Below are positions 40,125 through 54,843 of a DNA stretch of 64,000 nt, one piece after another. Below the pieces are notes generated by a model. That model was not told where the DNA came from. It saw only the letters and a program-made list of their open reading frames with translations, and searched no databases. The stretch's first letter is position 1, and the number at the start of each line of letters is the position of its first letter. The position numbers were made by a program, and so were the translations under genes. This stretch comes from a virus (taxonomy: Duplodnaviria; Caudoviricetes). Location of the stretch: positions 1,527 through 65,526 of the IMG/VR virus record IMGVR_UViG_2791355504_000004. The stretch is one strand, 5' to 3'.

Positions 40125-40391
40125 TTACTTAAAATTTAACATGCAAAATTGTAAAAGCTCCTTTTCAATATCTTGAAAAGGAACTGATTCTAAATAGATA
40201 AATTCTACCCATTCATTTGCAACTTGTCTTTGCTGACATATTATATTTTCTAAATTTAATTCAGCTTCTTCTATATTTCTGATTGTGCTTTGAAGCCTTG
40301 AGATATATGTGTTGAAAATGACCACGTTTTTATCGTTAAGGGATTGAGCAATATCAATTATATGATCTTCAATGTGGTGTATTTTAAACAT
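40125..40391 (-). CDS. AT-rich moron, hypothetical protein
   Basis: 88 aa; GGTAGAGAG upstream of start; opposite strand to late genes. Confidence 0.55.
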   Translation of the reverse strand: MFKIHHIEDHIIDIAQSLNDKNVVIFNTYISRLQSTIRNIEEAELNLENIICQQRQVANEWVEFIYLESVPFQDIEKELLQFCMLNFK

Positions 40392-40508: not shown

Positions 40509-41105
40509 ATGTTAGATAAAATTAAATCATTGTTTTCTAAAAAAAGCGTGAGTATATACCAAACCGAATTTAATTCAGCGGTTAAGCTGACGAATAAGTT
40601 ATGTTTAGGTAATTACAAATACTTTAAAAATAGTAACTTCAGCTATTTTGATGATCAAGAAAATGTTTTAAATTTAATCAGATTTCTCAAAAGTGAAGGA
40701 TGGGATATTAGGAATTTAAAATTAGATCGAGAATGTTTAACTATTCACTACAATATAAAACAATACATTGACGAATTTTATAAAATTGATAGCATACTTA
40801 CGATTGGTTATATAGAAAGTTCTCACGATAAACAATTTTATGAATCAATTGAGCAAAGGCTTTCAAATTTGGAAAACCCAATAAACTCAGCTGAAAATCA
40901 TCTAATCCATGCTTGGCTAACTTTGCCAAATTTAGAAATATTAGATTTTACTTATTTTACAACTGAGGCTGTAAAAACTAATAACCCTGAGAGATATGGT
41001 CATGTTTTTGCGAAACACGGTGATGATGATTTATTACACAGATATAAACCACAGTTAGTTGGTGTTGAATATCTAATAAAAGCAGGATATGTAAAGAACC
41101 AATAA
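40509..41105 (+). CDS. AT-rich moron, hypothetical protein
   Basis: 198 aa with C..HY and HAW...ILDFT motifs. Confidence 0.7.
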   Translation: MLDKIKSLFSKKSVSIYQTEFNSAVKLTNKLCLGNYKYFKNSNFSYFDDQENVLNLIRFLKSEGWDIRNLKLDRECLTIHYNIKQYIDEFYKIDSILTIGYIESSHDKQFYESIEQRLSNLENPINSAENHLIHAWLTLPNLEILDFTYFTTEAVKTNNPERYGHVFAKHGDDDLLHRYKPQLVGVEYLIKAGYVKNQ

Positions 41106-41174: not shown

Positions 41175-43103
41175 ATGTACGGCTTAAAAAAACGTTCAAA
41201 GCAAGATGAAAGTGGACAAATTCAAGGTGCAGGTACTGGCACTTCTGATGATATTAAAAAAACGGTACCCAGTGGCAGCTACATTATGCCTGCTGATTCT
41301 ACCCAAAAGATTGGGATTGATAATTTAAAAAATATGGGGAGTCCCACACCAGTCAATCTCAGTAACGGTGAATTCCAACTCTCGCCTGACCAAGTTCATT
41401 CGGTGGGTGTGCAAACACTTAATGCCATGAAAGATCAGACGCACATGCCTGTTGATCAACCTCAATTGGGTTTTAAGCCTGGCCAGAATAAACCTGAGTT
41501 ATTTTTTGCGAATGGTGGATTGGTATCAAGCCCTTATCCAAGCGCAGATGATATTCGACGAGCCCAACAAAATAGAGTTGGTGGGCCACAAATGCGTGAT
41601 GTCACACCAATTAATCGTCAACTTCCAGCAACATCAACTACACCTTCAACAACTAGCTCACCATCTGCAAGTCCAAGTAATACAGCACCAGCACAAGGTA
41701 GTAGTTTTGGTGCGGGGTTTAGTTCATTACGTCAAGGTATTAACCGTGCTGCAAATAGTAAACTTGGTAAATTGGGTACAGTTGGTGCTTTGGCAAGTAC
41801 AGGCTTTGCTGTAGGCGATACACCAACAGAACAATATCGTGAGCGTTTCGGTTTGGGTGATTATAATCCTGATGATTCTGATGGTATGCGATTTGCAAAA
41901 GATCTTGGTGTACGTGCTTTAGGTGCTGCATCTGATCTAGGTGTTGCCATGACATTAGGTCAGGCTGGTCGGTTTTATGCTGATAAACAACGTATTGCAA
42001 GTGAAGCAAAAGCAGCTCAACCTGAATTTAATGCTAAACAGAATAATCCAAATCCTGTTGTAAATAATCCATTTGGTAATCCTAAAGCACCACCTGTAAC
42101 TCAAACACAGCCTGAAGTCCAAACTCAATCAAGCACTGTACAGAATTCTGATCCTTATGTTATTCAGCAAAAAGGAAATAGCTTTAGTTATGCTAATCCT
42201 GGTGCAGCTGCCCAAGCACGAGCAGATGGAGTTCGAGAAGGTGAAGGGTTGGGCTTTAAAGTACGCCCTGCAAATGATCCTAAAGGTGTAGCAAATTTCA
42301 TGCAGAATACACGTGAGATGGGACCATCTGAACAACAGATTCAAAATGCAATCGCTCAACGTGAAATGAATTTAGGCTTGGGTATGCAAGGTTATGGCAA
42401 TAATTCTGTTCAGGCACCTCAGCGTAATGATGCACAGGAGGCAGAGCGCCAATCTGTAATTAAAGCAGCCAGTACACCAATTGCTGGTGCCAGAGGACTG
42501 ACAGCTAATCAAATCCGCACTTTATCTGATTTACAGCAAGGTGAGGATAATCGTGCGAGTCAACGTTATACGACTGATGCAAACAACGTCGCTGCTTTAC
42601 AGCGTGAAGCTATGGGGCAAGCTGGACAGAATTATCGTACAGAACTAGGTGAGCAAGGTACAAATAACCGATTTAATGCAAATTTAGGTTTTGATGCACA
42701 AAAGTTTCAAGCTACCAATGATTTGGCAAACCGAGAATTTAATTTAAATGCTACTGAGAAAGGCTTTGGGATTCGTAACTCGCAACGCTTAGAAAAATTG
42801 TATGAACAATATGATTCTGCGAAATCCGATGAAGATCGTAAATCAATTCAAGAAAAAATTAACCGTTATACAGGTAGTAAAGCTGATACAGGAAAAGATC
42901 GTTATATGACTGTAGGTGGTGGTCAAGAGTGGAATGAAAAGTCTGGAACTATGGTAAATAGACCTCAACAGTTATTTGATACACAATCTCAGCGGTTTAT
43001 TGATACGCCACAAGGAAAAACTGCACAACGAGCTGTTGGTACAATTTCTAAAGTAGGCGACAAAACCGCTGTTTGGGATGGTAAGGACTGGGTTCAACAG
43101 TAA
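41175..43103 (+). CDS. Probable DNA ejection (internal virion) protein
   Basis: GAGTGTSDDI/LSNGEF/FANGG motifs; low-complexity Q/A/N/G-rich; precedes the giant internal protein gene. Confidence 0.7.
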   Translation: MYGLKKRSKQDESGQIQGAGTGTSDDIKKTVPSGSYIMPADSTQKIGIDNLKNMGSPTPVNLSNGEFQLSPDQVHSVGVQTLNAMKDQTHMPVDQPQLGFKPGQNKPELFFANGGLVSSPYPSADDIRRAQQNRVGGPQMRDVTPINRQLPATSTTPSTTSSPSASPSNTAPAQGSSFGAGFSSLRQGINRAANSKLGKLGTVGALASTGFAVGDTPTEQYRERFGLGDYNPDDSDGMRFAKDLGVRALGAASDLGVAMTLGQAGRFYADKQRIASEAKAAQPEFNAKQNNPNPVVNNPFGNPKAPPVTQTQPEVQTQSSTVQNSDPYVIQQKGNSFSYANPGAAAQARADGVREGEGLGFKVRPANDPKGVANFMQNTREMGPSEQQIQNAIAQREMNLGLGMQGYGNNSVQAPQRNDAQEAERQSVIKAASTPIAGARGLTANQIRTLSDLQQGEDNRASQRYTTDANNVAALQREAMGQAGQNYRTELGEQGTNNRFNANLGFDAQKFQATNDLANREFNLNATEKGFGIRNSQRLEKLYEQYDSAKSDEDRKSIQEKINRYTGSKADTGKDRYMTVGGGQEWNEKSGTMVNRPQQLFDTQSQRFIDTPQGKTAQRAVGTISKVGDKTAVWDGKDWVQQ

Positions 43104-43279: not shown

Positions 43280-44207
43280 GTTCACTGCCATATAGGCAGC
43301 TTAGAAATTTTACTCCTAGCACTCCAAATGTTAAGCGTAGTTCACTGCCATATAGGCAGCTTAGAAATGCAGGGTTAAATGCAACAGCAGTACCATATGG
43401 TTCACTGCCATATAGGCAGCTTAGAAATAACTCCATCCATCCTGCACCAAGCCACTTCTGTTCACTGCCATATAGGCAGCTTAGAAATTACGAATCAGGT
43501 CAATACGCAGAGGTTTTGCGTTCACTGCCATATAGGCAGCTTAGAAATGAACGATAATTTCAGGAAATTGTGTTTCTTGGTTCACTGCCATATAGGCAGC
43601 TTAGAAAGCAAAGAAAGGCGAGAAGGGCGACCAAGGTATGTTCACTGCCATATAGGCAGCTTAGAAAATAAAAAAAGTTTACACGCTCATCGGTAGCCGG
43701 TTCACTGCCATATAGGCAGCTTAGAAATGATTCGTAAGGCATTCCTTAAGCTCCTGCAAGTTCACTGCCATATAGGCAGCTTAGAAATTCCTATTGATTC
43801 TCTTAACCCACTGCAGAACGTTCACTGCCATATAGGCAGCTTAGAAATTAAGAATCTCAACCAATCCTGCGAACGTCATGTTCACTGCCATATAGGCAGC
43901 TTAGAAAACCAACAAATGGCTCAACCCATTTTGTAATTCGTTCACTGCCATATAGGCAGCTTAGAAAATGAAGAATCAAAAGGTCAAGTTGGTCTATTGG
44001 TTCACTGCCATATAGGCAGCTTAGAAAGATCAGGGATGAATCAACAAAGCTATTTGTCAGTTCACTGCCATATAGGCAGCTTAGAAAACTTCATAAAAGC
44101 CTGCTTTTGTAAAATTGTCGTTCACTGCCATATAGGCAGCTTAGAAAATAATAAGTAAAAGCTATTTGATGCGTTCCTTGTTCACTGCCATATAGGCAGC
44201 TTAGAAA
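43280..44207 (+). CRISPR. Type I-F CRISPR array, 16 identical 28-bp repeats and 15 unique 32-bp spacers; no cas genes in window
   Basis: GTTCACTGCCATATAGGCAGCTTAGAAA every 60 bp from 43280 to 44180; CTGCC/GGCAG Cas6f-type hairpin. Confidence 0.99.
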
Positions 44208-44262
44208 ATCTAAAGATTATTTATATAACACCTAAACTGGTCATGGGAAAAAGCATAAAAAT

Positions 44263-44598: not shown

Positions 44599-44626
44599 AT
44601 ACCCCACAACTTAGATTGTGGGGTAT
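44599..44626. terminator. Bidirectional terminator
   Basis: ATACCCCACAA...TTGTGGGGTAT. Confidence 0.75.
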
Positions 44627-44631
44627 TTGTT

Positions 44632-45492
44632 TTACTTACTCGCTAAATATCTACCAGTTGTGAGTAATTCATTGCCATACACAAAATCAAGTAATCCGTC
44701 GAATTTTTTAGCAAACTCTGCAAGATTTATAGGGTAGTAGCCTTTAAGTAATGGCATGGCTGATAATTGCCCATCATCTCTGACTTGTACAAACCAAGAG
44801 TGGTAGTGACCACCGTTATATTCATTGTTGATTTGCTGTGCCACCTGAATGACTTGTTGAGGATATGGCAGGGCTTCGACTTCCTGTTTTTCAGATTTGG
44901 CTTTAATTTCCATTGTTTCTAAATAGTGAACTGCTTCTGGGAAATGGATTGCCAATAACTCAGCATAACGTGGAATTTTAAAGTGACGATTATGTCTAGC
45001 CCACATCTCAGCAAAGATTTTGCGCTCACCGCCTGAACGACGAGAAACAATTTCATGCAACAAGGCTTGCTGTTCTGGTGAGATGGATTGGCGGTCATTG
45101 ATTTTCCACTGCATTACCAAAGCATCGTAAGCACGAATCACAATCAAGTGGAACTTTGCGGAGATCCACATTGCATATGCGTAAACTATTTCTTTGACAG
45201 CGTACGTCCCACGATTATTACCACCATTGATTACTTTTACAGCACTTCTCATATTTGAGAAGTGGTTGTTTTCAATAAGGCTCATATCCGAGACTTGTTC
45301 AATCTCTTTAATTAACTCTTGAATTTGCTCAACACGTAAAAAGTTAGATGGCTTATGCTTAGCAAGATTGCCACTTGCTTTATGTAAATCAGCAAGTGAA
45401 TATCGCCCATCTTCGTCTTGGCGAATAATGAGTTCACCAATTACTAAAGGTTGGTTGTTTGGATTTAAAAGATTTTGTTGTATAGTAGTCAT
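44632..45492 (-). CDS. ant: Antirepressor (KilA-N domain plus C-terminal Ant-type domain)
   Basis: IRQDEDGRYSLADLHKAS, GTY...YAMWIS..F; W.R...HF....Y.EL. Confidence 0.88.
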   Translation of the reverse strand: MTTIQQNLLNPNNQPLVIGELIIRQDEDGRYSLADLHKASGNLAKHKPSNFLRVEQIQELIKEIEQVSDMSLIENNHFSNMRSAVKVINGGNNRGTYAVKEIVYAYAMWISAKFHLIVIRAYDALVMQWKINDRQSISPEQQALLHEIVSRRSGGERKIFAEMWARHNRHFKIPRYAELLAIHFPEAVHYLETMEIKAKSEKQEVEALPYPQQVIQVAQQINNEYNGGHYHSWFVQVRDDGQLSAMPLLKGYYPINLAEFAKKFDGLLDFVYGNELLTTGRYLASK

Positions 45493-45573
45493 GTTGACTT
45501 TCCTGTAAGTTGTTGACACATAAAACCTTGTTAATTCTTGGCGGAAGGCAAGGTTTTTTTGTGCCTGTTGATT

Positions 45574-45735
45574 TCATGCTTTTGCACTCTCTTGGGTTAG
45601 TAAAAGTTCAACAGCCTTATTCATTAAATAATTCATTGAACGCTCTTCTTTTTTAGCCTTTTCTTTCAAAGACTCATGCAATTCACCTTCTAGGCGGAAT
45701 CGCACATCTGTGGATTTTTTTTGCTTATTACTCAT
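45574..45735 (-). CDS. Arc-like RHH repressor (53 aa), not in ORF track
   Basis: Manual translation MSNKQKKSTDVRFRLEGELHESLKEKAKKEERSMNYLMNKAVELLL; AGGTGAG RBS. Confidence 0.85.
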   Translation of the reverse strand: MSNKQKKSTDVRFRLEGELHESLKEKAKKEERSMNYLMNKAVELLLTQESAKA

Positions 45736-45750
45736 AGTTCTCACCTAATT

Positions 45751-45836
45751 GCCACACTTTGTGGCGTTTGATAACTATAGCCACACTTTGTGGTAATGTA
45801 AATAGATCAAGACAACATTTTGCCACTTTTTGTGGC
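45751..45836. promoter_or_regulatory. Three palindromic operators between the divergent RHH genes
   Basis: GCCACACTTTGTGGC (45751), GCCACACTTTGTGGT (45780), GCCACTTTTTGTGGC (45822). Confidence 0.85.
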
Positions 45837-45847
45837 ATGAGGAATTT

Positions 45848-46174
45848 ATGAGCAACCAAGCTGACCACACAATTGTTAGATTGCGCGTTCCGCCTGAACT
45901 AAAATTAAAAATTGAAAAGTCGGCTGAAGACAATAATCGCTCTCAAAGCGCAGAAATGGTTTCGCGCCTTGAAAATAGCTTTATTTCAACTAGAGTTGCA
46001 TCGGACCCATATAAAAGAATGCTACTAGCTGTTATAGCGCAAGTTGTTGCGGAACAAGCAGATAAGGAAAAACCATCCTTCCAAGAAGCTATTGATAAAA
46101 TTACAAAAGCAATCATGGTAGATGAAGAGTGGTTTGATAAAGTTAATGGTCAATTAAAAAACCAAAAAAAGTAA
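45848..46174 (+). CDS. Arc/Mnt-like RHH repressor
   Basis: VRLRVPPELKLKIEKSA..NNRS..AEMV.RL. Confidence 0.88.
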   Translation: MSNQADHTIVRLRVPPELKLKIEKSAEDNNRSQSAEMVSRLENSFISTRVASDPYKRMLLAVIAQVVAEQADKEKPSFQEAIDKITKAIMVDEEWFDKVNGQLKNQKK

Positions 46175-46226
46175 GTCACTGGTGACTAAAATGCCGACTT
46201 AAAGTCGGCTTTAATTTCTTTTTAAA

Positions 46227-46835
46227 TTAATTACACTGCAATTGCCCACCAATATCTCGGCACATACGACCATTATTATAATAAGTGCCACTATTGCCAT
46301 TATAACGGTTGCCTTGATTATCCCAGCATCCAGATCCATCACAGTTAGTCATATGGGTTGGTGTTGGTGCTTGTGGCATTGGTGCTGAGTAAGAGTTATT
46401 TGAGTTTGAATAACTATCACCACTAGAAACATTTACACCATTCATTGCCGCAAGAGTATTGCGTTGATTAGCAGTTAACCCTTTTGAATTCTTATATGGT
46501 GTGCTCGCTTCATTAATAATTTTCTGTCTCAATGCTTCATTTTCAGCAGAACGTACCTGTTGACGTGTTTGGCTATAACTAGAGGTAGTATTATTTTGGT
46601 AAGGATTTACATAAGTATTTGGAATTGATGCATTTGATTTGAAAGTCTGTTTTTGTGTTTCCGTGGGTGTTCCTAAAGAGCGGATAGTTTCTATTTTTTG
46701 TTCTTTCATTCCTTGAGGTGGTTTTTTTCTGGAGTATGTAACATTACCTTTAGCATCAACCCATTTATAAATTTGTTGTGCATTCAAGTTAAAGGATAGA
46801 AGGATAGATAAAATTAGTATGAAATGTTTTAACAT
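46227..46835 (-). CDS. Exported DUF4124-like protein with a segment resembling the phage ejection protein
   Basis: Signal peptide ending LNA; IYKWVDAKGNVTYS..PP motif; Cys-containing C-terminus. Confidence 0.82.
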   Translation of the reverse strand: MLKHFILILSILLSFNLNAQQIYKWVDAKGNVTYSRKKPPQGMKEQKIETIRSLGTPTETQKQTFKSNASIPNTYVNPYQNNTTSSYSQTRQQVRSAENEALRQKIINEASTPYKNSKGLTANQRNTLAAMNGVNVSSGDSYSNSNNSYSAPMPQAPTPTHMTNCDGSGCWDNQGNRYNGNSGTYYNNGRMCRDIGGQLQCN

Positions 46836-46894
46836 CTGGATTCTCTATTTCTGATTATTATCATTTAAGATTGCTTTTTGAGCATTTTCAATAC

Positions 46895-46908
46895 CCCTCT
46901 AAGGTTAG
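46895..46908 (+). promoter_or_regulatory. Late-promoter motif copy 5
   Basis: CCCTCTAAGGTTAG followed 20 nt later by CATGAT. Confidence 0.75.
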
Positions 46909-46959
46909 ACCATTTTTAATATAAAAAACATGATAGACGCATAATATTAGGAGTGCGTC

Positions 46960-49900
46960 ATGTCTGAGCAAAACCAAATTGATTGGGAAAAAGGGGAAAT
47001 TCAAGAACCAAGTCAAACTGATTGGGATTCTGGGGTAATTTCTCAATCGAAGGAAAAGAAGGAAAAAGGTTTTCTTGGACAAGCAAAAGATCATACTATT
47101 TCATTTGTAGGTAAAGGTGCTGTAGCTGGCGGGCAAATATTGGTTGGACTTTCTGATTTAATGTCTGATGGTGCGACTGGCAAGGTTTTATCTGAAAAAT
47201 TTGGTTATGACCCGAAAGCTACTAATCAAGAAATGACCAGATGGCAAACTCCACAATTACAAGAACAAATAAATCAAAAAGCCCAACTTCCTATACAAAA
47301 AATAGAAGAGGAAGATGACATTCCAACAACAGTTGGGAAGCTCTTTAATAACTCAAAAGAATATTTGAAATTCTACAAAGACAATCCCGCAATGATTAGC
47401 AATAGTGTTGCAGAATCCTTAATTCCAATAGGAGTTAGTGCTGCACTTGGTCGAGGTACAGGTATTGCTAATCCTATTGTTGCTGCTTCGGTTGGCGAGG
47501 GTATTGGAATGGCGGGCAGCCAAGCTGAACAAATTCGCCAAGAGACTGTAGATGGACGCTTAACAGCAGATCAATCCTTAGCAAGTGCAACAACAGGTGC
47601 CCTTGGCGGGTTGATTGGCTTTGCTGGTGGTCGTCTTGCCCAGAAAATGGGAATTGGTGATGTAGATACCATGCTTGTAACGGGGCGAGCTGGTCCAGCA
47701 GAAATTGCTGGTGAGATTGCTTCAATGCCTGCGAAGTCTTTACCTCGTCGTATGGTTGAAGGTGCTATTTCAGAAGGATTTTTAGAAGAATTACCCCAAT
47801 CCGTTTCTGAACAAATTTTACAGAACTTGGCATTAGATAAGCCTTGGAGTGACGGTATTGAAGATGCCGCTGTCATGGGCACATTGGCTGGTATGGCAAT
47901 GGGTGGTGGTGCCAATATCTTGTCTGGCCATAATGCTGAAAATGAACAGCAACGAGCGATAGAAAAAAATAAGGAGCTGTCTGAAGCTGAATATCAAAAA
48001 ACCTTGCTAGATGAATACCATCTACGTTCGCAACAGGAACAAGAGAAGGTTTGGAATGCAAAAGATGATGAGAATTTTTTAGCTAATATATCTCATCATA
48101 TCAATAATATGAATGGACGATACCTGAATCAACCCACAGAGGAAATGGGTGATTTAGGTAACCAGATTGGTACAAGTATTAATCCCAACTTACTTGAATT
48201 TAATTCAAATAATGATCCTGATGCACCAATTAATCCTAATCCAACAAACACACCTAACCCAGATAGCCCACTTTCTCCGAGTGGTGGAAACTATTTTGAT
48301 GATACTCAAACACAGTTACAGCTACCGTCAGAACGCTTGGGTATTAATCCAAGTGATGGACCAATGTCATCAGCAGCAGCTTTGGCGGTGGATAGTGGTG
48401 CTTCACCAGTTGCACAATTAAGTTTTACCCCAGAACAACAGGATAGTAATTCGCCATTAAGTGATGCTGTACCATCTAATTACCAATCGCTACTTGATAG
48501 CCAGACAAACCAATCACAGATTGATTATCTTGAACAACAGTTTACAGATGCTAAAAGTGTGCCTAAAAAGGCCGAGATTCGTAAACAAATTGATGAACTC
48601 AAAACTAGCAATCCCATTACTGAAAATCAGACAAAACCTGTATTTAATACTGACGCTAATCTTTCTGTTGGGTCACTTCCTTGGTCAAAGGATATTGCTA
48701 GTCAGGCTTTACAGCAGTATCAGGGTGATACCAATTCGTTAGAGCAAACAAATCAATCTTTAACGGGAAAAGGCGCAGCGACTGATCTTATTTACTATAA
48801 AAACTCACCATCATTTAGTAATGTTGAAGTTGTTGATGCAGGTGATAAATCGATTGTTAAGTTGACCAATGCTAAGACAGGTCAAGTGGTTGAGCGTGAG
48901 TATCCGCAGGAGTTGTCACGATTTAATCAGTTCTTGGAGGGTACGGTAAATCAAAGTACAGAACAATTAGATATTCCACCAGAAACAAAACAAGTTTCAA
49001 CGATCGTACCGCTAAGTGAACAACTTACTCAGCTTGAACAACAGTTCTCAGCAGCTAAGACTGTTCCGCAGAAAGCCAAATTGCGTAGACAGATCGAAAC
49101 TTTGAAACAAGGGAATAATACATTCAATCCCGAAGTATTGGACCATGGTGTTTTAAATGTGCCTTTAGCTAAACGCGGTAATATTGATGCCCAAATTGAT
49201 CAATACAAGTCTGAGCAAAGTAAATTATTAAAAGATCAAAGTGAAACCAAAAAAAATGAACATAAGGCAGCTCAGAATCAAGCAAAGCCTTTGTTTGAAG
49301 CATTAACAGCAGAACATATTAATACTTATGCAAATAAGGCTGGAATCAATGCTGCAAATGCTAAATCAGAATTAAAAAGCATGGCGCATTGGCAACCTCA
49401 AAAAGCAATGAAGGTTTTTGAGGCTTTAAAGTCAATTTCGGAATCGAATTCATCTCCAATTGACACGAATGCACATGAAGCGGCTACGAGTCCACAAAAT
49501 GATTTACCAGCACCAACACAAGCGCAGATTGAAGCTGGCAATTATAAAAAGGGGCACATTAAAGTTCAGGGCTTAGATATAGCTGTTGAAAACCCTCGGG
49601 GTTCATCTCGTTCAGGTAAACGACCTGATGGAACAGAATGGTCGCATGAAATGAGTGACCACTATGGATACATCAAACGGACTACTGGTGCCGATAATGA
49701 GCACATTGATACTTATATAGGGAGTAACCCAGATTCAAACCAGGTATTCATTGTAGATCAGCTTGACCAAAAAACAGGTAACTTTGATGAGCACAAGGTT
49801 ATGCTTGGATTTAACAGTCAGGAAGATGCTACCACAGCATATAAATCAAACTTTGATAATGGATGGATAGTAGGTCCTATCCGTACTATGGATATGGAAC

Positions 49901-51981
49901 AGTTTAAAAACTGGCTTAAAAATGAGGATACCTCAAAACCTGCCAATGAAATAAAGGCTGATTCCCTTATCACTCACGGTGCGAATGTTAAAGCGCAATC
50001 CGAACAAGGCTTAAATACTTATACTCAGATTCAATCTGATTCAGGCTTAACCCATAGCATCCCTAGCAAACTAATGGATCAGGTACATAAGTTAGGCAGT
50101 ATTGCGAATGACTTGTCGAGCATAAAAACGGAAGGTGTAAAAACCAATGTGCTGTATGGCAAACGATTGTTGGCCAAGATTGCAAAGCTTAATCCTGATG
50201 TGCAGGTGCACATTGTTTCTGATTTGATCAATATTAAAGACAAAACTACTCGATCTAGACTTAGTTCAGGTGGTTTTTATATCCCTGATCAGAACATTTT
50301 GTATATTTATCCTAAGACGGAACTTTGGGAAGGTTCAGTTTTAGAGCTAATAAACCATGAGTTGACACATACTGTCACAGAGCAATCGATTACCAAAAAC
50401 CAAGTATCCAATGAAAATTTAGATAAACTTGAACAATTTAGAAGTATTCTAGGGGAATATATTTGGAATCAAGGTGAGAACCTTGATGAAAATATGGCTG
50501 AAAGATTGCGTTATGCATATGAGCAGGACTTTCCTCATGAATTACTTGCGGTGAGTGCTGCTGAAACCAATGTGCGTGAAGTTTTTAAAACAATGCTTGG
50601 TCAGGATGGATTCAAGCAATTAGATGCAATATTTACCGAAATTTCTACCAATCAGTTCAAAGAGAAACGAGATGATCGATTATCCACACGAGGTCAAAGT
50701 CAGCAGCCGAGTCGAGATCGCGCAGAAAATATATCAACAAGCGACACCAGAACAGCAAAATCAGATGGAGCCACTGCTCACTCAAGTGATGGAGTTACAG
50801 TCTCAACCGCAGACAAATCATCAGGAACGAAAGAAAGTTCAGCACGAGCTGCTCAAATTAATGAATCAAATGGCTCATATTCTGACAACGGACGTAAAAG
50901 TGTTTTCAAAGATTCAGGAAGGGGTAGCAGAGAAGCACTGGGAGGAATATCTGAAGAAGATAAACAGTTAAAAAAGAATAATGAAAAGAAACGTTTTAGC
51001 CATGCTAATAAAGCAGTTGAATCATCTACAGTAGCTCAAATTCGAGAAGTCTTGGTTAACCATTTTGGGGAAAAGACAATCAATGAGCTTGAACGTCAGG
51101 GTAAGCTTGAAATTATTCAAGACTATGCTGTAGATGGAGTAGAAGGATTTTATTACAACGGTAAAGCCGTTCTTATTGCATCAAATCTTACTCTTGAAAG
51201 TGCTGTGCCAACATTCTTACATGAGTTGGGTGGCCATGCTGGTTTTCAAAATATGATGAACCAGGAGCAATATAAGGAGTTAATGCGTCAGTTTGATAAG
51301 TTGGTCGAACAAGGTAATCCAGTTGCTATGGCGGCTAAATTACTTGCAGAACGCGAACAAGGCAGCGTTCGCCAACAACTTGAATATTTACCATATCTAT
51401 TAACGCTTTCATCAACGATGCAGCAACGTAATGTAATTCAACGCAATGCTCTTCAAAAATTGATCCGCAATATCGTCGCATATGTGAAAGCATGGGCATT
51501 TGATCGATTTGGTATAAATCTAAACCTAAATCCAGATGATATATTGGCGTTATCGGAACGCATGATTAAACAGATTGAACGCCAGACCTCAATGGATACT
51601 GTTCGCCAAAAATATCAGGGCACGAGTCAATGGATGACTGCTCCCAATGGGGCGAAGACGCATCTGTCAGAACAGCAATGGTTGCAGGTTCGTACGCCAG
51701 AATTTAAGAAATGGTTTGGTGACTGGGAAAATGATGCAGAGAATTCCTCTCAGATCTTAGATGAGAATGGGGAACCTAAGGTTGTCTATCATGGTACTTC
51801 CAGTGAATTTAATGAGTTTAGAAAAGGTCATGGTTTATTAGGTGAGGGTATTTATTTAACTGATAGTTTTGATACTGCTGATATGTACGCCAATGTCCGT
51901 GGTAAAAATGGTTTTGTATTACCTTTATTCGTGAATATTCGCAATGCATTTAAAACGACTGGTAATGTCTCTCGAGATTAA
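46960..51981 (+). CDS. Large polyvalent internal virion protein, N-terminal part (InPase-like, zincin-like, start of ART-like domain), ending at an in-frame TAA
   Basis: EAGNYKKGH...HYGYI...GAD..HID; HELTH and HELGGH; RTPEFKKWFGDW...GEPKVVYHGT. Confidence 0.85.
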   Translation: MSEQNQIDWEKGEIQEPSQTDWDSGVISQSKEKKEKGFLGQAKDHTISFVGKGAVAGGQILVGLSDLMSDGATGKVLSEKFGYDPKATNQEMTRWQTPQLQEQINQKAQLPIQKIEEEDDIPTTVGKLFNNSKEYLKFYKDNPAMISNSVAESLIPIGVSAALGRGTGIANPIVAASVGEGIGMAGSQAEQIRQETVDGRLTADQSLASATTGALGGLIGFAGGRLAQKMGIGDVDTMLVTGRAGPAEIAGEIASMPAKSLPRRMVEGAISEGFLEELPQSVSEQILQNLALDKPWSDGIEDAAVMGTLAGMAMGGGANILSGHNAENEQQRAIEKNKELSEAEYQKTLLDEYHLRSQQEQEKVWNAKDDENFLANISHHINNMNGRYLNQPTEEMGDLGNQIGTSINPNLLEFNSNNDPDAPINPNPTNTPNPDSPLSPSGGNYFDDTQTQLQLPSERLGINPSDGPMSSAAALAVDSGASPVAQLSFTPEQQDSNSPLSDAVPSNYQSLLDSQTNQSQIDYLEQQFTDAKSVPKKAEIRKQIDELKTSNPITENQTKPVFNTDANLSVGSLPWSKDIASQALQQYQGDTNSLEQTNQSLTGKGAATDLIYYKNSPSFSNVEVVDAGDKSIVKLTNAKTGQVVEREYPQELSRFNQFLEGTVNQSTEQLDIPPETKQVSTIVPLSEQLTQLEQQFSAAKTVPQKAKLRRQIETLKQGNNTFNPEVLDHGVLNVPLAKRGNIDAQIDQYKSEQSKLLKDQSETKKNEHKAAQNQAKPLFEALTAEHINTYANKAGINAANAKSELKSMAHWQPQKAMKVFEALKSISESNSSPIDTNAHEAATSPQNDLPAPTQAQIEAGNYKKGHIKVQGLDIAVENPRGSSRSGKRPDGTEWSHEMSDHYGYIKRTTGADNEHIDTYIGSNPDSNQVFIVDQLDQKTGNFDEHKVMLGFNSQEDATTAYKSNFDNGWIVGPIRTMDMEQFKNWLKNEDTSKPANEIKADSLITHGANVKAQSEQGLNTYTQIQSDSGLTHSIPSKLMDQVHKLGSIANDLSSIKTEGVKTNVLYGKRLLAKIAKLNPDVQVHIVSDLINIKDKTTRSRLSSGGFYIPDQNILYIYPKTELWEGSVLELINHELTHTVTEQSITKNQVSNENLDKLEQFRSILGEYIWNQGENLDENMAERLRYAYEQDFPHELLAVSAAETNVREVFKTMLGQDGFKQLDAIFTEISTNQFKEKRDDRLSTRGQSQQPSRDRAENISTSDTRTAKSDGATAHSSDGVTVSTADKSSGTKESSARAAQINESNGSYSDNGRKSVFKDSGRGSREALGGISEEDKQLKKNNEKKRFSHANKAVESSTVAQIREVLVNHFGEKTINELERQGKLEIIQDYAVDGVEGFYYNGKAVLIASNLTLESAVPTFLHELGGHAGFQNMMNQEQYKELMRQFDKLVEQGNPVAMAAKLLAEREQGSVRQQLEYLPYLLTLSSTMQQRNVIQRNALQKLIRNIVAYVKAWAFDRFGINLNLNPDDILALSERMIKQIERQTSMDTVRQKYQGTSQWMTAPNGAKTHLSEQQWLQVRTPEFKKWFGDWENDAENSSQILDENGEPKVVYHGTSSEFNEFRKGHGLLGEGIYLTDSFDTADMYANVRGKNGFVLPLFVNIRNAFKTTGNVSRD
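50672..50971 (+). CDS. Candidate overprinted gene (99 aa, +1 frame) inside the polyvalent protein gene
   Basis: Helical protein-like sequence coinciding with an S/R/G-rich linker of the main frame; AGAGAAACGAG upstream of ATG. Confidence 0.5.
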   Translation: MIDYPHEVKVSSRVEIAQKIYQQATPEQQNQMEPLLTQVMELQSQPQTNHQERKKVQHELLKLMNQMAHILTTDVKVFSKIQEGVAEKHWEEYLKKINS

Positions 51982-52017
51982 GTTGTAGAAGCCACCCGAT
52001 CAGGCAAGTATCAAGGG

Positions 52018-54843
52018 GTGGTTCATCATTTTGATGATCATGAGTATATTGTTGCTCTTGAGTCTAATCAGGTCAAAATGGCTGAAGGGAATACTGGTAC
52101 ATTCAATAGTGAAAGTGCAGATATTCGATTCAGCCGTTCTGCGAAGGATATTATTGATAAACTTGGTAAAGACCTTAAAGGTACTACGGTCCAATCAATT
52201 AAAGATAAAACTGGTTATAAGTTTACTGATTGGTTGGGTATTAGTTTATCGGCTCTAGGTCGTCGTCAACTCACTGAGATTTACAGTAAAATTTTGCCAC
52301 AGCTAAATAAATATAATGAACTGGCTACTCAAATGGATGCGGATAAGAATGATGCTGGTGCAGAAGCTGATAGCATTGTTCGGGAATGGTCGAACCTTAA
52401 AGATGAAGAGCAACTTGCAGAGCTTATGCATGATGCAACTTTGGCAATGATTGATCCCGTAAAACCTTATAAATCTGGTGATAATAAAGCGAAGTATCAG
52501 CAGCTATTACATGCATACAACGACCTGACTCCAGAAGCTCAAGCGATGTATAAAAATGCGCGTGATGCCTATAAAAAACATTACACCAAAGTACATCAGG
52601 CCATTAAAGAACGGATTATGCGCGCCGAACTTTCGAGTGAAAAGAAAGCCGATTTAATGAAGCAAATGGATGACAATTTCTTTAATGGTCGGATTAAAGG
52701 TGTTTATTTTCCATTAGCACGCTTCGGTAAATATGTGGTTTTGATGCATAACCAAAATGGGCAAATCGAAAGTGTAAGTCGTGCAGAAACCATGGCAGAG
52801 GCACAGCGTTTACGTTCTGAATTGATGCAGAAATATCCACACTTCAAAGTAGACCGTGTCATTTTAGATAAAGAATTTAATGCATCACGTGATGGCGTAG
52901 GCCGTGGCTTTATGACCAGTTTATTTGCAGAAGTAGACAATCTTGGATTATCAACAGCAGAGCAGGCTGAATTTGAAGATACATTGAGTCAATTGTATTT
53001 GTCTTCTATGCCAGATTTAAGTTGGGCAAAACATGGTATTCATCGTAAAGGCACTGCTGGATTTAGTCAGGATGCACGTCGGGCATTTGCGCAAAATATG
53101 TTTCATGGAGCAGGGTATCTCGCTAAACTGCGATATGGCGATCAGTTAGCACAGCAGCTTGATGATATGCAGAAATATGCATCTGAACAAAGCAAGCTAA
53201 ATGACAGTTATGACCAGCCTACGGCTCAACGTGTCATTGATGAAATGAACAAATGCCATGACAATTTAATGAATCCTAAATCTCATCCATTATCGAGTGC
53301 TTTAACCAGTTTAGGCTTTATTTATTACCTTGGCTTGTCACCAGCTTCAGCATTGGTCAACTTATCGCAGACAGCATTAGTCGCGTATCCGATTATGGGT
53401 GCCAAATGGGATTTCGATAAAGCAGCCCAAGAGTTGTTGAAGGCATCAAATGATTTTAGAAAAGGGGTTGAGTTCCACAAAGTGAAATGGGAGGGAACTA
53501 AAACCGACCTTTATAAAACCATGAGTGCAGACATTTCTAAATTCCTGAGCAAGGATGAAAAGCAGGCTTACGATGATGCTGTAGCTAGAGGTGTGATTGA
53601 TGTTACACAGGCACATGATTTAGCTGGTATTGCACAAGGTGAAGATAGTGGTGTGATGTGGAAGACACGTCCAATTATGCGTGCAGCAAGTGTGATGTTT
53701 CACCATGCAGAGAGATTTAACCGAGAAGTTACTTTTATAGCTGCATATCGATTAGCTCGAAAAGCAGGTTCAAGCCATGATTCAGCCTTTGATCAAGCGG
53801 TTGATGTAACCTATAAAGGTCATTTTGACTATAGCTCAGGAAACCGCCCACGTATTATGCAGGGCAATGTTGCTAAGGTCCTTCTGCTGTTTAAACAGTT
53901 TGGCCAGAACATGATTTACACATTAGCGCGTCAGACCTATCAATCAATTAAAGCTGAAACAGCAGCAGAGCGAAAAGAAGCTCGTAAAACACTTGGGGCA
54001 ATTTTAGCAATGCATGCAACATTTGCTGGTACGCTTGGTTTACCAATGGTAGGGATGCTGTTATCTGTAGCATCATGGATGGGTGGAGATGACGACGATC
54101 CTTGGGATGCAGAAGTTGCATTACGGAACTATCTAGCTGAAGCTTTTGGACCAACTATTTCAAATCTATTAATGAAAGGTGCACCTCGTGCACTGACACC
54201 TCTCGATATGTCGGGACGCGTAGGTATTAATAATTTGTTATTACCAGATGTACAAGAAGGTCTTGAAGGTAAACGTTGGGCTGAATCTGCTATGGCTGGT
54301 GCATTAGGCCCTGTTGCAGGTATAGGCCTGAATGTTGCGAAAGGTGCACAAGAAATTTCAGAAGGGCATAATTTACGTGGCATAGAAACGATGCTTCCAG
54401 TGTTCTTAAAGAACTTTGCCAAAACTTATCGTTATGGTGAGGAAGGTGTACAGGACAAAACGGGTGTATCCATCATGGACGAAGTCAGTTCAATGGATTT
54501 ACTTGTCCAAGGTATGGGTTTTTCTCCATCTGATGTACGCACGGCCAATGAAGGTAAATCAGCAATTTATCAGCTTGATAAAAAATTAAATGAACGTCGT
54601 GGTCGCTTAATGGCTTTATGGTCCAGAGCCAAATTGATGGATGATCAAAATGAGATGGACGAAATTTGGGAAGAAATTCAAGGATTCAATGAAAGAAATC
54701 CATCTCGTCGTATCACTCGAGTCAATTTGAATCAGAGTTATAAGAATCGTCAACGTCGTATTGATCGTTCTGAAGATGGCATTTATTTGTCACGGAATAG
54801 ACAAGATGCCCGAAGTGCCGGTTATTTTGCATTTGGTGAGTAG
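52018..54843 (+). CDS. Large polyvalent protein, C-terminal part with PLxRFG domain; same frame as 46960-51981
   Basis: YFPLARFGKY motif; in frame after a single TAA. Confidence 0.85.
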   Translation: MVHHFDDHEYIVALESNQVKMAEGNTGTFNSESADIRFSRSAKDIIDKLGKDLKGTTVQSIKDKTGYKFTDWLGISLSALGRRQLTEIYSKILPQLNKYNELATQMDADKNDAGAEADSIVREWSNLKDEEQLAELMHDATLAMIDPVKPYKSGDNKAKYQQLLHAYNDLTPEAQAMYKNARDAYKKHYTKVHQAIKERIMRAELSSEKKADLMKQMDDNFFNGRIKGVYFPLARFGKYVVLMHNQNGQIESVSRAETMAEAQRLRSELMQKYPHFKVDRVILDKEFNASRDGVGRGFMTSLFAEVDNLGLSTAEQAEFEDTLSQLYLSSMPDLSWAKHGIHRKGTAGFSQDARRAFAQNMFHGAGYLAKLRYGDQLAQQLDDMQKYASEQSKLNDSYDQPTAQRVIDEMNKCHDNLMNPKSHPLSSALTSLGFIYYLGLSPASALVNLSQTALVAYPIMGAKWDFDKAAQELLKASNDFRKGVEFHKVKWEGTKTDLYKTMSADISKFLSKDEKQAYDDAVARGVIDVTQAHDLAGIAQGEDSGVMWKTRPIMRAASVMFHHAERFNREVTFIAAYRLARKAGSSHDSAFDQAVDVTYKGHFDYSSGNRPRIMQGNVAKVLLLFKQFGQNMIYTLARQTYQSIKAETAAERKEARKTLGAILAMHATFAGTLGLPMVGMLLSVASWMGGDDDDPWDAEVALRNYLAEAFGPTISNLLMKGAPRALTPLDMSGRVGINNLLLPDVQEGLEGKRWAESAMAGALGPVAGIGLNVAKGAQEISEGHNLRGIETMLPVFLKNFAKTYRYGEEGVQDKTGVSIMDEVSSMDLLVQGMGFSPSDVRTANEGKSAIYQLDKKLNERRGRLMALWSRAKLMDDQNEMDEIWEEIQGFNERNPSRRITRVNLNQSYKNRQRRIDRSEDGIYLSRNRQDARSAGYFAFGE

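What the first reader, a model, noticed from the sequence alone, without database searches (positions are those of the whole stretch)
46227..46835. Exported moron protein mimics a segment of the phage's own ejection protein: candidate decoy superinfection exclusion
Residues encoded at 46452-46538 (EALRQKIINEASTPYKNSKGLTANQRNTL) align without gaps to the ejection protein segment encoded at 42438-42524 (EAERQSVIKAASTPIAGARGLTANQIRTL), 17 of 29 identical. The rest of the two proteins appears unrelated. The moron has a signal peptide, runs opposite to the late genes and lies among ejection genes beside an immI-like region, the neighbourhood in which P22 encodes sieA. Inference: a periplasmic decoy that occupies the binding partner of that motif (a host envelope protein or another ejection subunit) and blocks DNA entry by related phages.
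Basis: partly seen in the sequence, partly recalled or inferred. Interest (0 to 1): 0.85.

Follow-up and report, generated by a model that had tools for sequence, protein, structure and literature searches.

The report
Exported phage protein copying ejection-protein hairpin
A temperate Acinetobacter phage makes a small exported protein carrying a copy of a conserved helical hairpin from its own presumed DNA-ejection protein; it probably blocks DNA entry by rival phages, but this is untested.

Summary
Residues 95-131 of the 202-aa ORF match residues 417-453 of the 642-aa protein at 18 of 37 positions, E=3e-7.

The window is an F116-like provirus. The ORF encodes a signal peptide, a DUF4124 domain, a linker, a helix-loop-helix module and a 4-Cys domain.

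The module is conserved in both families. A profile of it searched against 1.84 billion proteins found 90 hits: 61 ejection-type, 18 small exported proteins, 11 unclassified of which 2 are spurious repeats. Host chromosomal paralogs lack the module.

In the ejection-protein model, the module caps a 105-residue helix and is the most confident region. Among near-identical morons it is the most variable segment.

Three results go against a simple self-matched decoy:
- A moron's module does not track its own phage's ejection allele (4596 of 20000 permutations scored as high).
- Repeated exchange between the two families is not shown (AU p=0.37).
- The same genomic slot can hold proteins that share only the 4-Cys domain.

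No expression or binding data exist.

Best reading (about 0.45): periplasmic interference with ejectosome assembly, which would be superinfection exclusion by mimicry. The scan has noted similar mimic morons on other DNA.

The parts
46227..46835 (-). Moron gene of 202 aa. Architecture: signal peptide, DUF4124, linker, hairpin module, linker, 4-Cys domain.
   Evidence: ORF; Pfam DUF4124; 113 homologues, those carrying a source name all Acinetobacter; architecture from the alignment and the model.
46779..46835 (-). Predicted signal peptide, residues 1-19, with cleavage after the nearly invariant A19.
   Evidence: Sequence features; A19 is conserved in at least 90% of 37 homologues; residues 2-17 are helical in the model. 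No signal-peptide predictor was available.
46683..46805 (-). DUF4124 match, residues 11-51. The core is YKWVDxxGxxxYS.
   Evidence: Pfam PF13511, E=1.1e-10; Y23, K24, W25, V26, D27, G30 and Y34 are invariant.
46443..46553 (-). Shared helix-loop-helix module, residues 95-131.
   Evidence: BLASTP; helix 97-111, loop, helix 122-131; the most conserved internal segment of the family.
46230..46358 (-). C-terminal 4-Cys beta-rich domain, residues 160-202.
   Evidence: C165, C170, C192 and C201 are invariant; strands 162-201; it is the only part shared by all proteins found in this genomic slot.
46193..46209 (.). Two-way terminator-like hairpin, 18 nt after the moron's stop codon.
41175..43103 (+). 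642-aa presumed ejection (internal virion) protein, phrog_11341.
   Evidence: PHROG E=5.5e-136 with function unknown; lies directly before the giant protein in Pseudomonas phage PA8; weak tape-measure-like N-terminal motif; model.
42423..42533 (+). The module within the 642-aa protein, residues 417-453. G438, T443 and Q446 are invariant.
   Evidence: pLDDT 89-91 for residues 421-450.
42504..42818 (+). Predicted single long helix, residues 444-548, which the module caps.
46960..51981 (+). Giant multi-domain virion protein, divergent from the moron. Its counterpart in F116-group phages is the T7 IVP-D homologue.
   Evidence: PHROG hits; passages of PMC4819975.
44632..46174 (.). immI-like cassette: KilA-N antirepressor (44632-45519, -) and two Arc/RHH genes (45574-45744, -; 45830-46174, +).

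Best explanation
The gene encodes a periplasmic accessory ('moron') protein of an F116-like temperate phage.

Shown:
- Its chassis is a signal peptide, a DUF4124 domain and a 4-Cys domain. The same chassis exists as a host chromosomal protein in Acinetobacter.
- The phage version has an extra helix-loop-helix module in its linker. This module is homologous to the conserved hairpin that starts the long C-terminal helix of the phage's 642-aa internal protein.

Inferred:
- The 642-aa protein forms part of the periplasm-spanning DNA conduit after ejection, like P22 gp20 or T7 gp15.
- Its hairpin sits at one end of the helical bundle and acts as a docking or assembly surface.
- The moron, made in the lysogen, presents the same hairpin in the periplasm. 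It either occupies the hairpin's partner or joins the incoming subunits, so the conduit of a superinfecting F116-like phage fails and its DNA does not enter.
- Loop length and second-helix residues would set which phages are excluded.
For: 1. Specificity. A profile of the module searched against 1.84 billion representative proteins gave 90 hits at E<=1e-3. Of these, 61 are ejection-type, 17 are small proteins with the 4-Cys domain, 1 is a truncated DUF4124 protein and 11 are unclassified. The unclassified set holds 3 ejection-type fragments, 5 ejection-like C-terminal proteins, 1 fragment of the small class and 2 spurious repeat proteins.

2. Conservation. The module is present in 16 of 16 aligned ejection homologues. 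G438, T443 and Q446 are among only 19 invariant columns in 34 ejection-type sequences. It is also the most conserved internal segment of the moron family.

3. Phage linkage. All 20 phage records with a moron homologue also carry the 642-aa family, and none of the other records has a moron homologue. Full-length morons occur in 3 of 401 Moraxellaceae genomes, all 3 among the 13 genomes with the ejection gene. By my own arithmetic the hypergeometric p is about 3e-5. In 9 of the loci fetched through the moron (not all independent), it lies directly downstream of the ejection gene and convergent with it.

4. Host paralogs lack the module.

5. Structure. The module is the best-predicted part of the ejection protein and caps a 105-residue helix of about 16 nm. 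A passage of PMC10883804 says Sf6 gp20 forms a 15-nm tube.

6. Diversification. P0004 and P0006 differ at 8 of 37 module columns but at only 1 of 171 elsewhere. P0014 and P0034 are identical at 19 of 37 module columns against 69 of 72 in the C-terminal part. Both families carry the same short-loop and long-loop (NGQ insert) alleles.

7. Stand-alone modularity. Seven small proteins carry two tandem copies. Five of 92 distinct small-protein modules are bracketed by a Cys pair, against 0 of 67 ejection-type modules. This suggests, but does not show, a periplasmic staple.

8. Gene setting. The gene is on the opposite strand, has its own terminator and lies next to an immI-like cassette. In PA8 it lies after the lysis genes and before the integrase.
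Against: - No co-variation between a moron's module and its own phage's ejection allele: across 8 distinct pairs, 4596 of 20000 permutations scored at least as high.
- In genome G001 the moron has the long-loop allele and its own ejection protein the short one.
- The module tree is unresolved. The AU test does not reject a single origin of the small-protein modules (p=0.371), so repeated copying from ejection genes is not shown.
- Phages whose ejection protein is 78-80% identical to the window's, module included, carry in the same slot a membrane-anchored protein with the 4-Cys domain and no module (L099, L100). One homologue, P0111, lacks the module altogether. The 4-Cys domain may therefore be the working part.
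- The mosaic between L086 and L087 extends beyond the module.
- The ejection role of the 642-aa protein rests on gene order, a weak tape-measure-like motif (E=0.0013) and a model with mean pLDDT 63.5.
- The moron model is poor, with mean pLDDT 54.8.
- No clear consensus promoter was found upstream.
Confidence: 0.45

Rival explanations
1. The protein changes the cell envelope or the phage receptor. Its DUF4124 and 4-Cys parts would act on an envelope machine such as type IV pili, the receptor of F116-type phages, giving exclusion at adsorption or some other lysogenic conversion. The hairpin would be only an oligomerisation or spacer element.
For: - The only DUF4124 protein with a tested role, TfpC of N. 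gonorrhoeae, stabilises type IV pili (passages of bioRxiv 10.1101/2020.09.26.314724).
- The 4-Cys domain is the constant part of all proteins found in this slot.
- A host paralog with the same chassis lies beside tamB and two DUF4189 genes, which is an envelope setting.
- Prophage proteins that alter pili are a common form of exclusion in Pseudomonas (listings; abstracts only).
Against: - It does not explain why the module is found only in this protein class and in the ejection family.
- It does not explain why the module is the diversification hot spot.
- The TfpC authors themselves say DUF4124 alone does not define orthology.
- The receptor of this Acinetobacter phage is unknown. That F116 uses pili is recalled, not taken from any call.
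Confidence: 0.22
2. The likeness reflects shared ancestry without any functional link. Under this reading, a helical hairpin moved once between neighbouring genes by domain shuffling. It now serves unrelated structural roles in each protein.
For: - The two genes are usually adjacent.
- A single origin of the small-protein modules is not rejected.
- There is no own-pair co-variation.
- The conserved residues (STP, G, LTxxQ) look like helix-stop and helix-cap signals. This is my own reading of the sequence.
Against: - The same core residues are held across Acinetobacter, Psychrobacter, Pseudomonas and more distant small proteins in both families.
- Both families carry the same loop-length alleles.
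- Variation is concentrated in the module.
Confidence: 0.15
3. The protein acts in the phage's own lytic cycle. For example, it might be a periplasmic factor made late that prevents progeny from wasting DNA on lysing cells, or that prepares the envelope. It would not be a lysogen-expressed exclusion protein.
For: In Pseudomonas phage PA8 the homologue has the same orientation as the late and lysis genes, and follows holin, endolysin and Rz.
Against: In the Acinetobacter phages the gene is antisense to the late genes and has its own terminator. Its presence is patchy among otherwise similar phages: 20 of 41 phage records with the ejection family have it.
Confidence: 0.13
4. The match is a chance resemblance.
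For: The match is short, at 37 residues.
Against: E=3e-7 for the pair. The HMM and profile searches recover only these two classes.
Confidence: 0.01

Closest known systems
Phage P22 SieA (superinfection exclusion A)
   Same: - It is a prophage gene in the ejection-gene and immI neighbourhood (the P22 gene order is recalled).
- It blocks DNA injection by relatives.
- Escape changes lie in the C-terminal regions of ejection proteins gp16 and gp20 (abstract of PMC10883804).
   Different: [quoted passage not shown]
- The window's protein has only a cleavable leader, carries DUF4124 and a 4-Cys domain, and matched no PHROG family.
- No exclusion has been shown for the window's protein.
Phage P1 Sim and T4 Sp/Imm; HK97 gp15; Streptococcus phage TP-J34 Ltp (all recalled, except the Ltp abstract listed)
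   Same: These are envelope-located phage proteins that stop DNA entry after adsorption. Sim is exported to the periplasm. Ltp and gp15 act against the tape measure protein.
   Different: None is known to copy a segment of the injected protein. No sequence relation was tested here.
TfpC (NGO0783) of Neisseria gonorrhoeae
   Same: A small envelope protein with an N-terminal leader plus DUF4124, followed by an extended linker and then a helical C-terminal part.
   Different: TfpC is a chromosomal pilus-stability factor. The passages read report no 4-Cys domain. Its sequence was not compared here, so orthology was not tested.
Host chromosomal DUF4124 plus 4-Cys protein of Acinetobacter (L012, L015, L017, L021, L026, L081)
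   Same: Same chassis: leader, YYKWVDAKG core, low-complexity linker and a 4-Cys C-terminal domain.
   Different: It is 24-29% identical, 152-161 aa long, has no hairpin module, and lies beside tamB rather than in a prophage (checked for L015 only).

Membership tests
Pfam DUF4124 (PF13511) | Match to the family model above the gathering score | tested here: met
   42 bits against a cut-off of 22, E=1.1e-10, residues 11-51.
Small exported 'DUF4124 - hairpin - 4-Cys' phage protein class (defined here) | A leader, one or two hairpin modules and a C-terminal 4-Cys domain | tested here: met
   The class comprises 17 representatives with the 4-Cys domain plus 113 close homologues.
P22 SieA family | Integral inner-membrane protein homologous to SieA | tested here: not met
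   The only hydrophobic segment is the N-terminal leader. No PHROG family matched and no PADLOC model matched. No direct comparison with a SieA sequence was made.
P22 SieA family | Blocks DNA injection by related phages | not testable with these tools
   This needs plating and DNA-entry assays.
TfpC orthologues | DUF4124 plus a TfpC-type C-terminal helical domain, and a role in type IV pili | not tested
   Only the DUF4124 match is shared.
phrog_11341 (the 642-aa protein) | Full-length match to the family profile | tested here: met
   E=5.5e-136, residues 1-619.
Podovirus ejection / internal virion protein (T7 gp15, P22 gp20 type) for the 642-aa protein | Encoded next to the IVP-D homologue | tested here: met
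   It lies directly upstream of the giant protein in PA8. In the window an inserted cassette separates the two. The giant protein of the F116 group is an IVP-D homologue (PMC4819975).
Podovirus ejection / internal virion protein (T7 gp15, P22 gp20 type) for the 642-aa protein | Extensively helical | tested here: inconclusive
   The C-terminal half is helical, with a 105-residue helix. Residues 133-214 and 281-324 are of low confidence and unstructured.
Podovirus ejection / internal virion protein (T7 gp15, P22 gp20 type) for the 642-aa protein | Present in virions and ejected | not testable with these tools
   No proteomic data were seen.

The most novel reading that the evidence does not exclude
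F116-like temperate phages carry a type-specific 'hairpin decoy'. This is a periplasmic protein built on a host envelope-protein chassis. It displays exchangeable alleles of the assembly hairpin of the ejectosome's periplasmic tube. Under this reading each prophage jams the DNA conduit of a chosen set of rival phages, and the hairpin alleles in the morons and ejection proteins evolve in an arms race. Exclusion by structural mimicry of an injected virion protein has not, to my knowledge, been described. In the literature searches, I saw no listed title or abstract start that describes it. Full texts were not read, apart from the abstract, outline and passages of PMC10883804.
Probability: 0.3. 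Interest if true: 0.85.

Novelty: new variant of a known kind. Interest (0 to 1): 0.66.

Why it matters
How podovirus ejection proteins assemble a conduit across the periplasm is poorly understood. The way exclusion proteins such as P22 SieA stop that assembly is also poorly understood.

A natural, soluble, stand-alone copy of one conserved element of an ejection protein would point directly at a critical assembly surface. It would give a simple genetic handle through allele swaps and escape mutants. It would also define a class of prophage immunity that is invisible to current defence-system catalogues: no PADLOC, PHROG-function or NCBIfam match was found.

The finding also shows a route by which phages could build such proteins. 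A host envelope protein serves as the scaffold, and a piece of the phage's own injection machinery is added as the specific part.

Tried and rejected
- **Near-identical DNA in phage records:** none found.
- **Fold searches of the 642-aa model:** nothing informative. PDB Foldseek gave 0 matches at E<=0.001. BFVD gave only 3 unnamed or uncharacterised viral proteins.
- **PDB sequence search with the moron profile:** 0 hits.
- **ESM Atlas search with the 4-Cys part:** only unnamed or DUF4124 clusters, plus Hexapep proteins at TM about 0.5. I take those as meaningless for a 50-residue stretch.
- **PADLOC and NCBIfam:** nothing for the moron except an RNase E low-complexity hit at 15 bits against a cut-off of 908.
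- **Promoter scan:** no consensus site on the - strand in 46836-46960. A weak TTGAAA-17-TTAAAT can be read by eye.
- **GC content:** the moron is only slightly lower than its neighbours, about 0.36 against 0.40-0.43. This is not diagnostic.
- **Own-pair co-variation:** not found.
- **Polyphyly of the small-protein modules:** not shown.
- **Cassette-only recombination:** not shown. The L086/L087 mosaic continues into the 3' part of the gene.
- **Context of non-Acinetobacter small proteins:** could not be obtained. The viral-contig scans with P0136 and P0199 returned only Acinetobacter- or Psychrobacter-type loci, or nothing. In the phage-record searches, only Pseudomonas phage records matched.
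- **RNA evidence:** no RNA holder was listed for window 44600-47100.
- **A resemblance of the 4-Cys domain's DGSGCW to the colicin TolB box:** this occurred to me from memory. I dropped it as untestable here.
- **Supplementary files:** closed. Virion proteomics of F116-group phages may sit in supplements I could not see.

Full report
**What the window is.** The window lies in a 65,526-base provirus record. Its large virion genes match families of Pseudomonas F116-type podoviruses (Hollowayvirus). The 642-aa protein is phrog_11341 at E=5.5e-136. tblastn finds it in 41 phage records, 37 of them Pseudomonas phages, including F116, H66, LKA5, phiC725A and PA8. The target ORF has 113 homologues, and those that carry a source name are all Acinetobacter. 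Between the 642-aa gene and the giant 1673-aa gene lie four things: a CRISPR array, a KilA-N antirepressor, two Arc-like genes and the target ORF.

**The observation.** The two peptides sit at the stated coordinates with 17 of 29 identical residues. BLASTP extends the match to 18 of 37 without gaps, E=3e-7, and nothing else in the two proteins is significant. DNA identity is 63 of 111. Only 9 of the 18 identical residues share a codon. This is therefore a likeness kept at protein level, not a recent duplication.

**Anatomy of the moron.** The parts, in order, are:
- a leader, residues 1-19, ending at a nearly invariant Ala;
- DUF4124, residues 11-51 by Pfam, E=1.1e-10;
- a low-complexity linker;
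- the module, modelled as helix 97-111, loop, helix 122-131;
- a second linker;
- a beta-rich domain with four invariant Cys, residues 160-202.

The model is poor overall, with mean pLDDT 54.8, so only the secondary structure is used. A two-way terminator follows the stop codon.

**The module is conserved in both families and found nowhere else.**
- In the moron family it is the most conserved internal segment. It is duplicated in tandem in P0005, P0010, P0019 and P0050, and it is missing in P0111.
- In the 642-aa family it is present in 16 of 16 aligned homologues. G438, T443 and Q446 are among only 19 invariant columns of 34 sequences.
- PA8 carries it in both gp60 (the moron homologue) and gp66.
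- An HMM built almost entirely from moron modules hit only moron-type and ejection-type ORFs, across six-frame translations of 100 loci plus the window.
- A balanced profile of 9 moron and 9 ejection segments (A2) was searched against 1.84 billion representative proteins. It gave 90 hits at E<=1e-3.

Using HMMs of the flanking domains, I classed those 90 hits as follows:
- 61 ejection-type;
- 17 small proteins with the 4-Cys domain;
- 1 truncated DUF4124 protein;
- 11 unclassified.

By eye, the 11 unclassified are 3 ejection-type fragments, 5 ejection-like C-terminal proteins, 1 small-class fragment and 2 unrelated repeat proteins. Because the profile was built from both families, hits to both are expected. 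The informative result is that nothing else is hit. A second informative result is that small proteins of quite different composition turn up. All have a leader or a lipobox, a DUF4124-like start, one or two modules and the 4-Cys end.

**Linkage to the phage.**
- All 20 phage records with a moron homologue are among the 41 that carry the 642-aa family.
- Searches with two distant small proteins again found only Pseudomonas phage records, all those listed already among the records that carry the 642-aa family.
- Among 401 Moraxellaceae genomes, 13 carry the 642-aa family. Three further genomes matched only its tape-measure-like N-terminal motif.
- Full-length morons occur in 3 of the 401 genomes, all 3 among those 13.
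- In nine of the loci fetched through the moron (not all independent), the moron lies directly downstream of the ejection gene and convergent with it. The window differs only in having the CRISPR and immI-like cassette inserted between them.
- In PA8 the gene lies after holin, endolysin, Rz and one more gene, just before the integrase. That is another typical accessory position.

**Origin of the chassis.** Many Acinetobacter chromosomes encode a 152-161-aa protein with the same leader, DUF4124 core, linker and a variant 4-Cys domain, but without the module. In the one locus whose neighbours were scanned (L015), it lies beside tamB and two DUF4189 genes. The phage protein therefore looks like a host envelope protein with a piece of the ejection protein added.

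**What the module is in the 642-aa protein.** The AlphaFold model has mean pLDDT 63.5, but residues 421-450 reach 89-91. It shows helix 419-433, a ten-residue loop, and then one helix from 444 to 548, followed by a small beta domain. A 105-residue helix is about 16 nm long. A passage of PMC10883804 states that Sf6 gp20 forms a 15-nm tube thought to be part of the periplasmic conduit.

Passages of PMC4819975 place the giant protein of the F116 group as the T7 IVP-D homologue. The same passages report that IVP-A and IVP-B candidates were not identifiable in this group. The N-terminus of the 642-aa family weakly matches tape measure proteins (E=0.0013). The ejection role is thus a reasonable inference, not a demonstrated fact.

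**Signs of an interface under pressure.** Among close moron relatives the module is where they differ. P0004 and P0006 differ at 8 of 37 module columns, 1 of 99 before it and 0 of 72 after it. P0014 and P0034 are identical at 19 of 37 module columns against 69 of 72 in the C-terminal part.

Both families carry the same two loop alleles, a short one (G-x-x-G-L-T) and a long one with an N-G-Q insert. Some moron modules are up to 74% identical to particular ejection-protein modules. That is more than the 51% between the moron types compared (P0014 against P0034 or P0036).

Five of 92 distinct small-protein modules are bracketed by a Cys pair. None of 67 ejection-type modules is. This would fit a disulfide that holds an isolated hairpin together in the periplasm, but the geometry was not checked.

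**Results that cut against the simple decoy story.**
- A moron's module is no closer to its own phage's ejection module than to others. In 8 distinct pairs, 4596 of 20000 permutations scored at least as high.
- In G001 the two alleles differ in loop length.
- The module tree of 152 rows and 34 columns is largely unresolved. A single origin of the small-protein modules is not rejected (log-likelihood difference 9.5, AU p=0.371).
- The L086/L087 mosaic has one breakpoint just before the loop, but divergence continues to the end of the gene.
- The same slot holds other proteins in other phages. These include a membrane-anchored 206-aa protein (L099, L100), zinc-ribbon-plus-membrane proteins (L093, L095) and Psychrobacter membrane proteins (L008, L097, L098). 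They share only the 4-Cys domain.
- The ejection proteins of L099 and L100 are 78-80% identical to the window's and carry the module.

The 4-Cys domain may therefore be the core effector and the module an optional specificity add-on. Lack of own-pair matching is not fatal, because an exclusion protein need not target its own phage type. It does, however, remove the one computational test that could have given positive support.

**Alternative readings.** DUF4124 is the family of TfpC, a gonococcal factor that keeps type IV pili extended (passages). F116-type phages use pili; this is recalled, not from a call. A receptor-level effect is therefore a serious rival. It does not explain why the module is exclusive to these two families. 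The other rivals are shared ancestry without function and a lytic-cycle role.

**Known systems and novelty.** P22 SieA is the closest functional analogue. It is a prophage protein that blocks the gp20/gp16 conduit (abstract). It is, however, an integral membrane protein, and no mimicry is reported for it. The searches listed no paper describing exclusion by copying part of an ejected protein (titles and abstract starts only). Earlier notes of this scan describe similar mimic morons in other phages, some with a four-Cys domain. These are unchecked AI notes on other DNA and are used only as leads.

**Verdict.** The mechanism is plausible but untested, and one proposed test, co-variation, came out negative. 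I could not obtain binding predictions, expression data or wider genomic context.

Noticed in passing
window 43280-44208: A CRISPR-like array: 16 repeats of a 28-nt unit with a 60-bp period, lying between the 642-aa gene and the antirepressor, with no cas genes nearby. It is already the subject of another finding of this scan.
   Followed up: partly
window 40509-41105 (+) and 40125-40391 (-): A very low-GC stretch (0.26-0.31) inside the virion block holds a 198-aa ORF and an antisense 88-aa ORF. Neither has a Pfam or PHROG match; there is only a weak PADLOC PDC-S05 hit at E=0.009. They may be further morons.
   Followed up: partly
window 41205-41330 (residues 11-52 of the 642-aa protein): The N-terminal GTGTSDD...GSYIMPAD motif is shared with tape measure proteins: PDB 8zdo_S at E=0.0013, and ORFs of 660-1311 aa in three Moraxellaceae genomes.
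   Followed up: partly
L093, L095, L096, L099, L100, L008, L097, L098 (slot next to the ejection gene): Other exported or membrane-anchored proteins end in the same 4-Cys domain but have quite different N-terminal parts, such as a zinc ribbon plus membrane segments, or a single anchor. Where the fetched locus also holds the ejection gene (five of the eight), they lie 0.1-5 kb from it. The 4-Cys domain also occurs in Betaproteobacteria (L010, L013, L016, L018, L019).
   Followed up: partly
L015 9974-10432 and the same gene in L012, L017, L021, L026, L081: A conserved Acinetobacter chromosomal protein of 152-161 aa with DUF4124 and a variant 4-Cys domain. In L015, the one locus whose neighbours were scanned, it lies downstream of tamB and two DUF4189 genes and upstream of aconitase B. 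Its function is unknown.
   Followed up: partly
L013 9413-11186: A Rhodocyclaceae contig carries two tandem paralogs of a leader plus DUF4124-like plus 4-Cys protein, 239 and 243 aa.
   Followed up: no
window 51979-52018: The giant protein is split into ORFs of 1673 and 941 aa. PA8 has a single gene for a protein of about 3780 aa. Another note of the scan covers this split.
   Followed up: no
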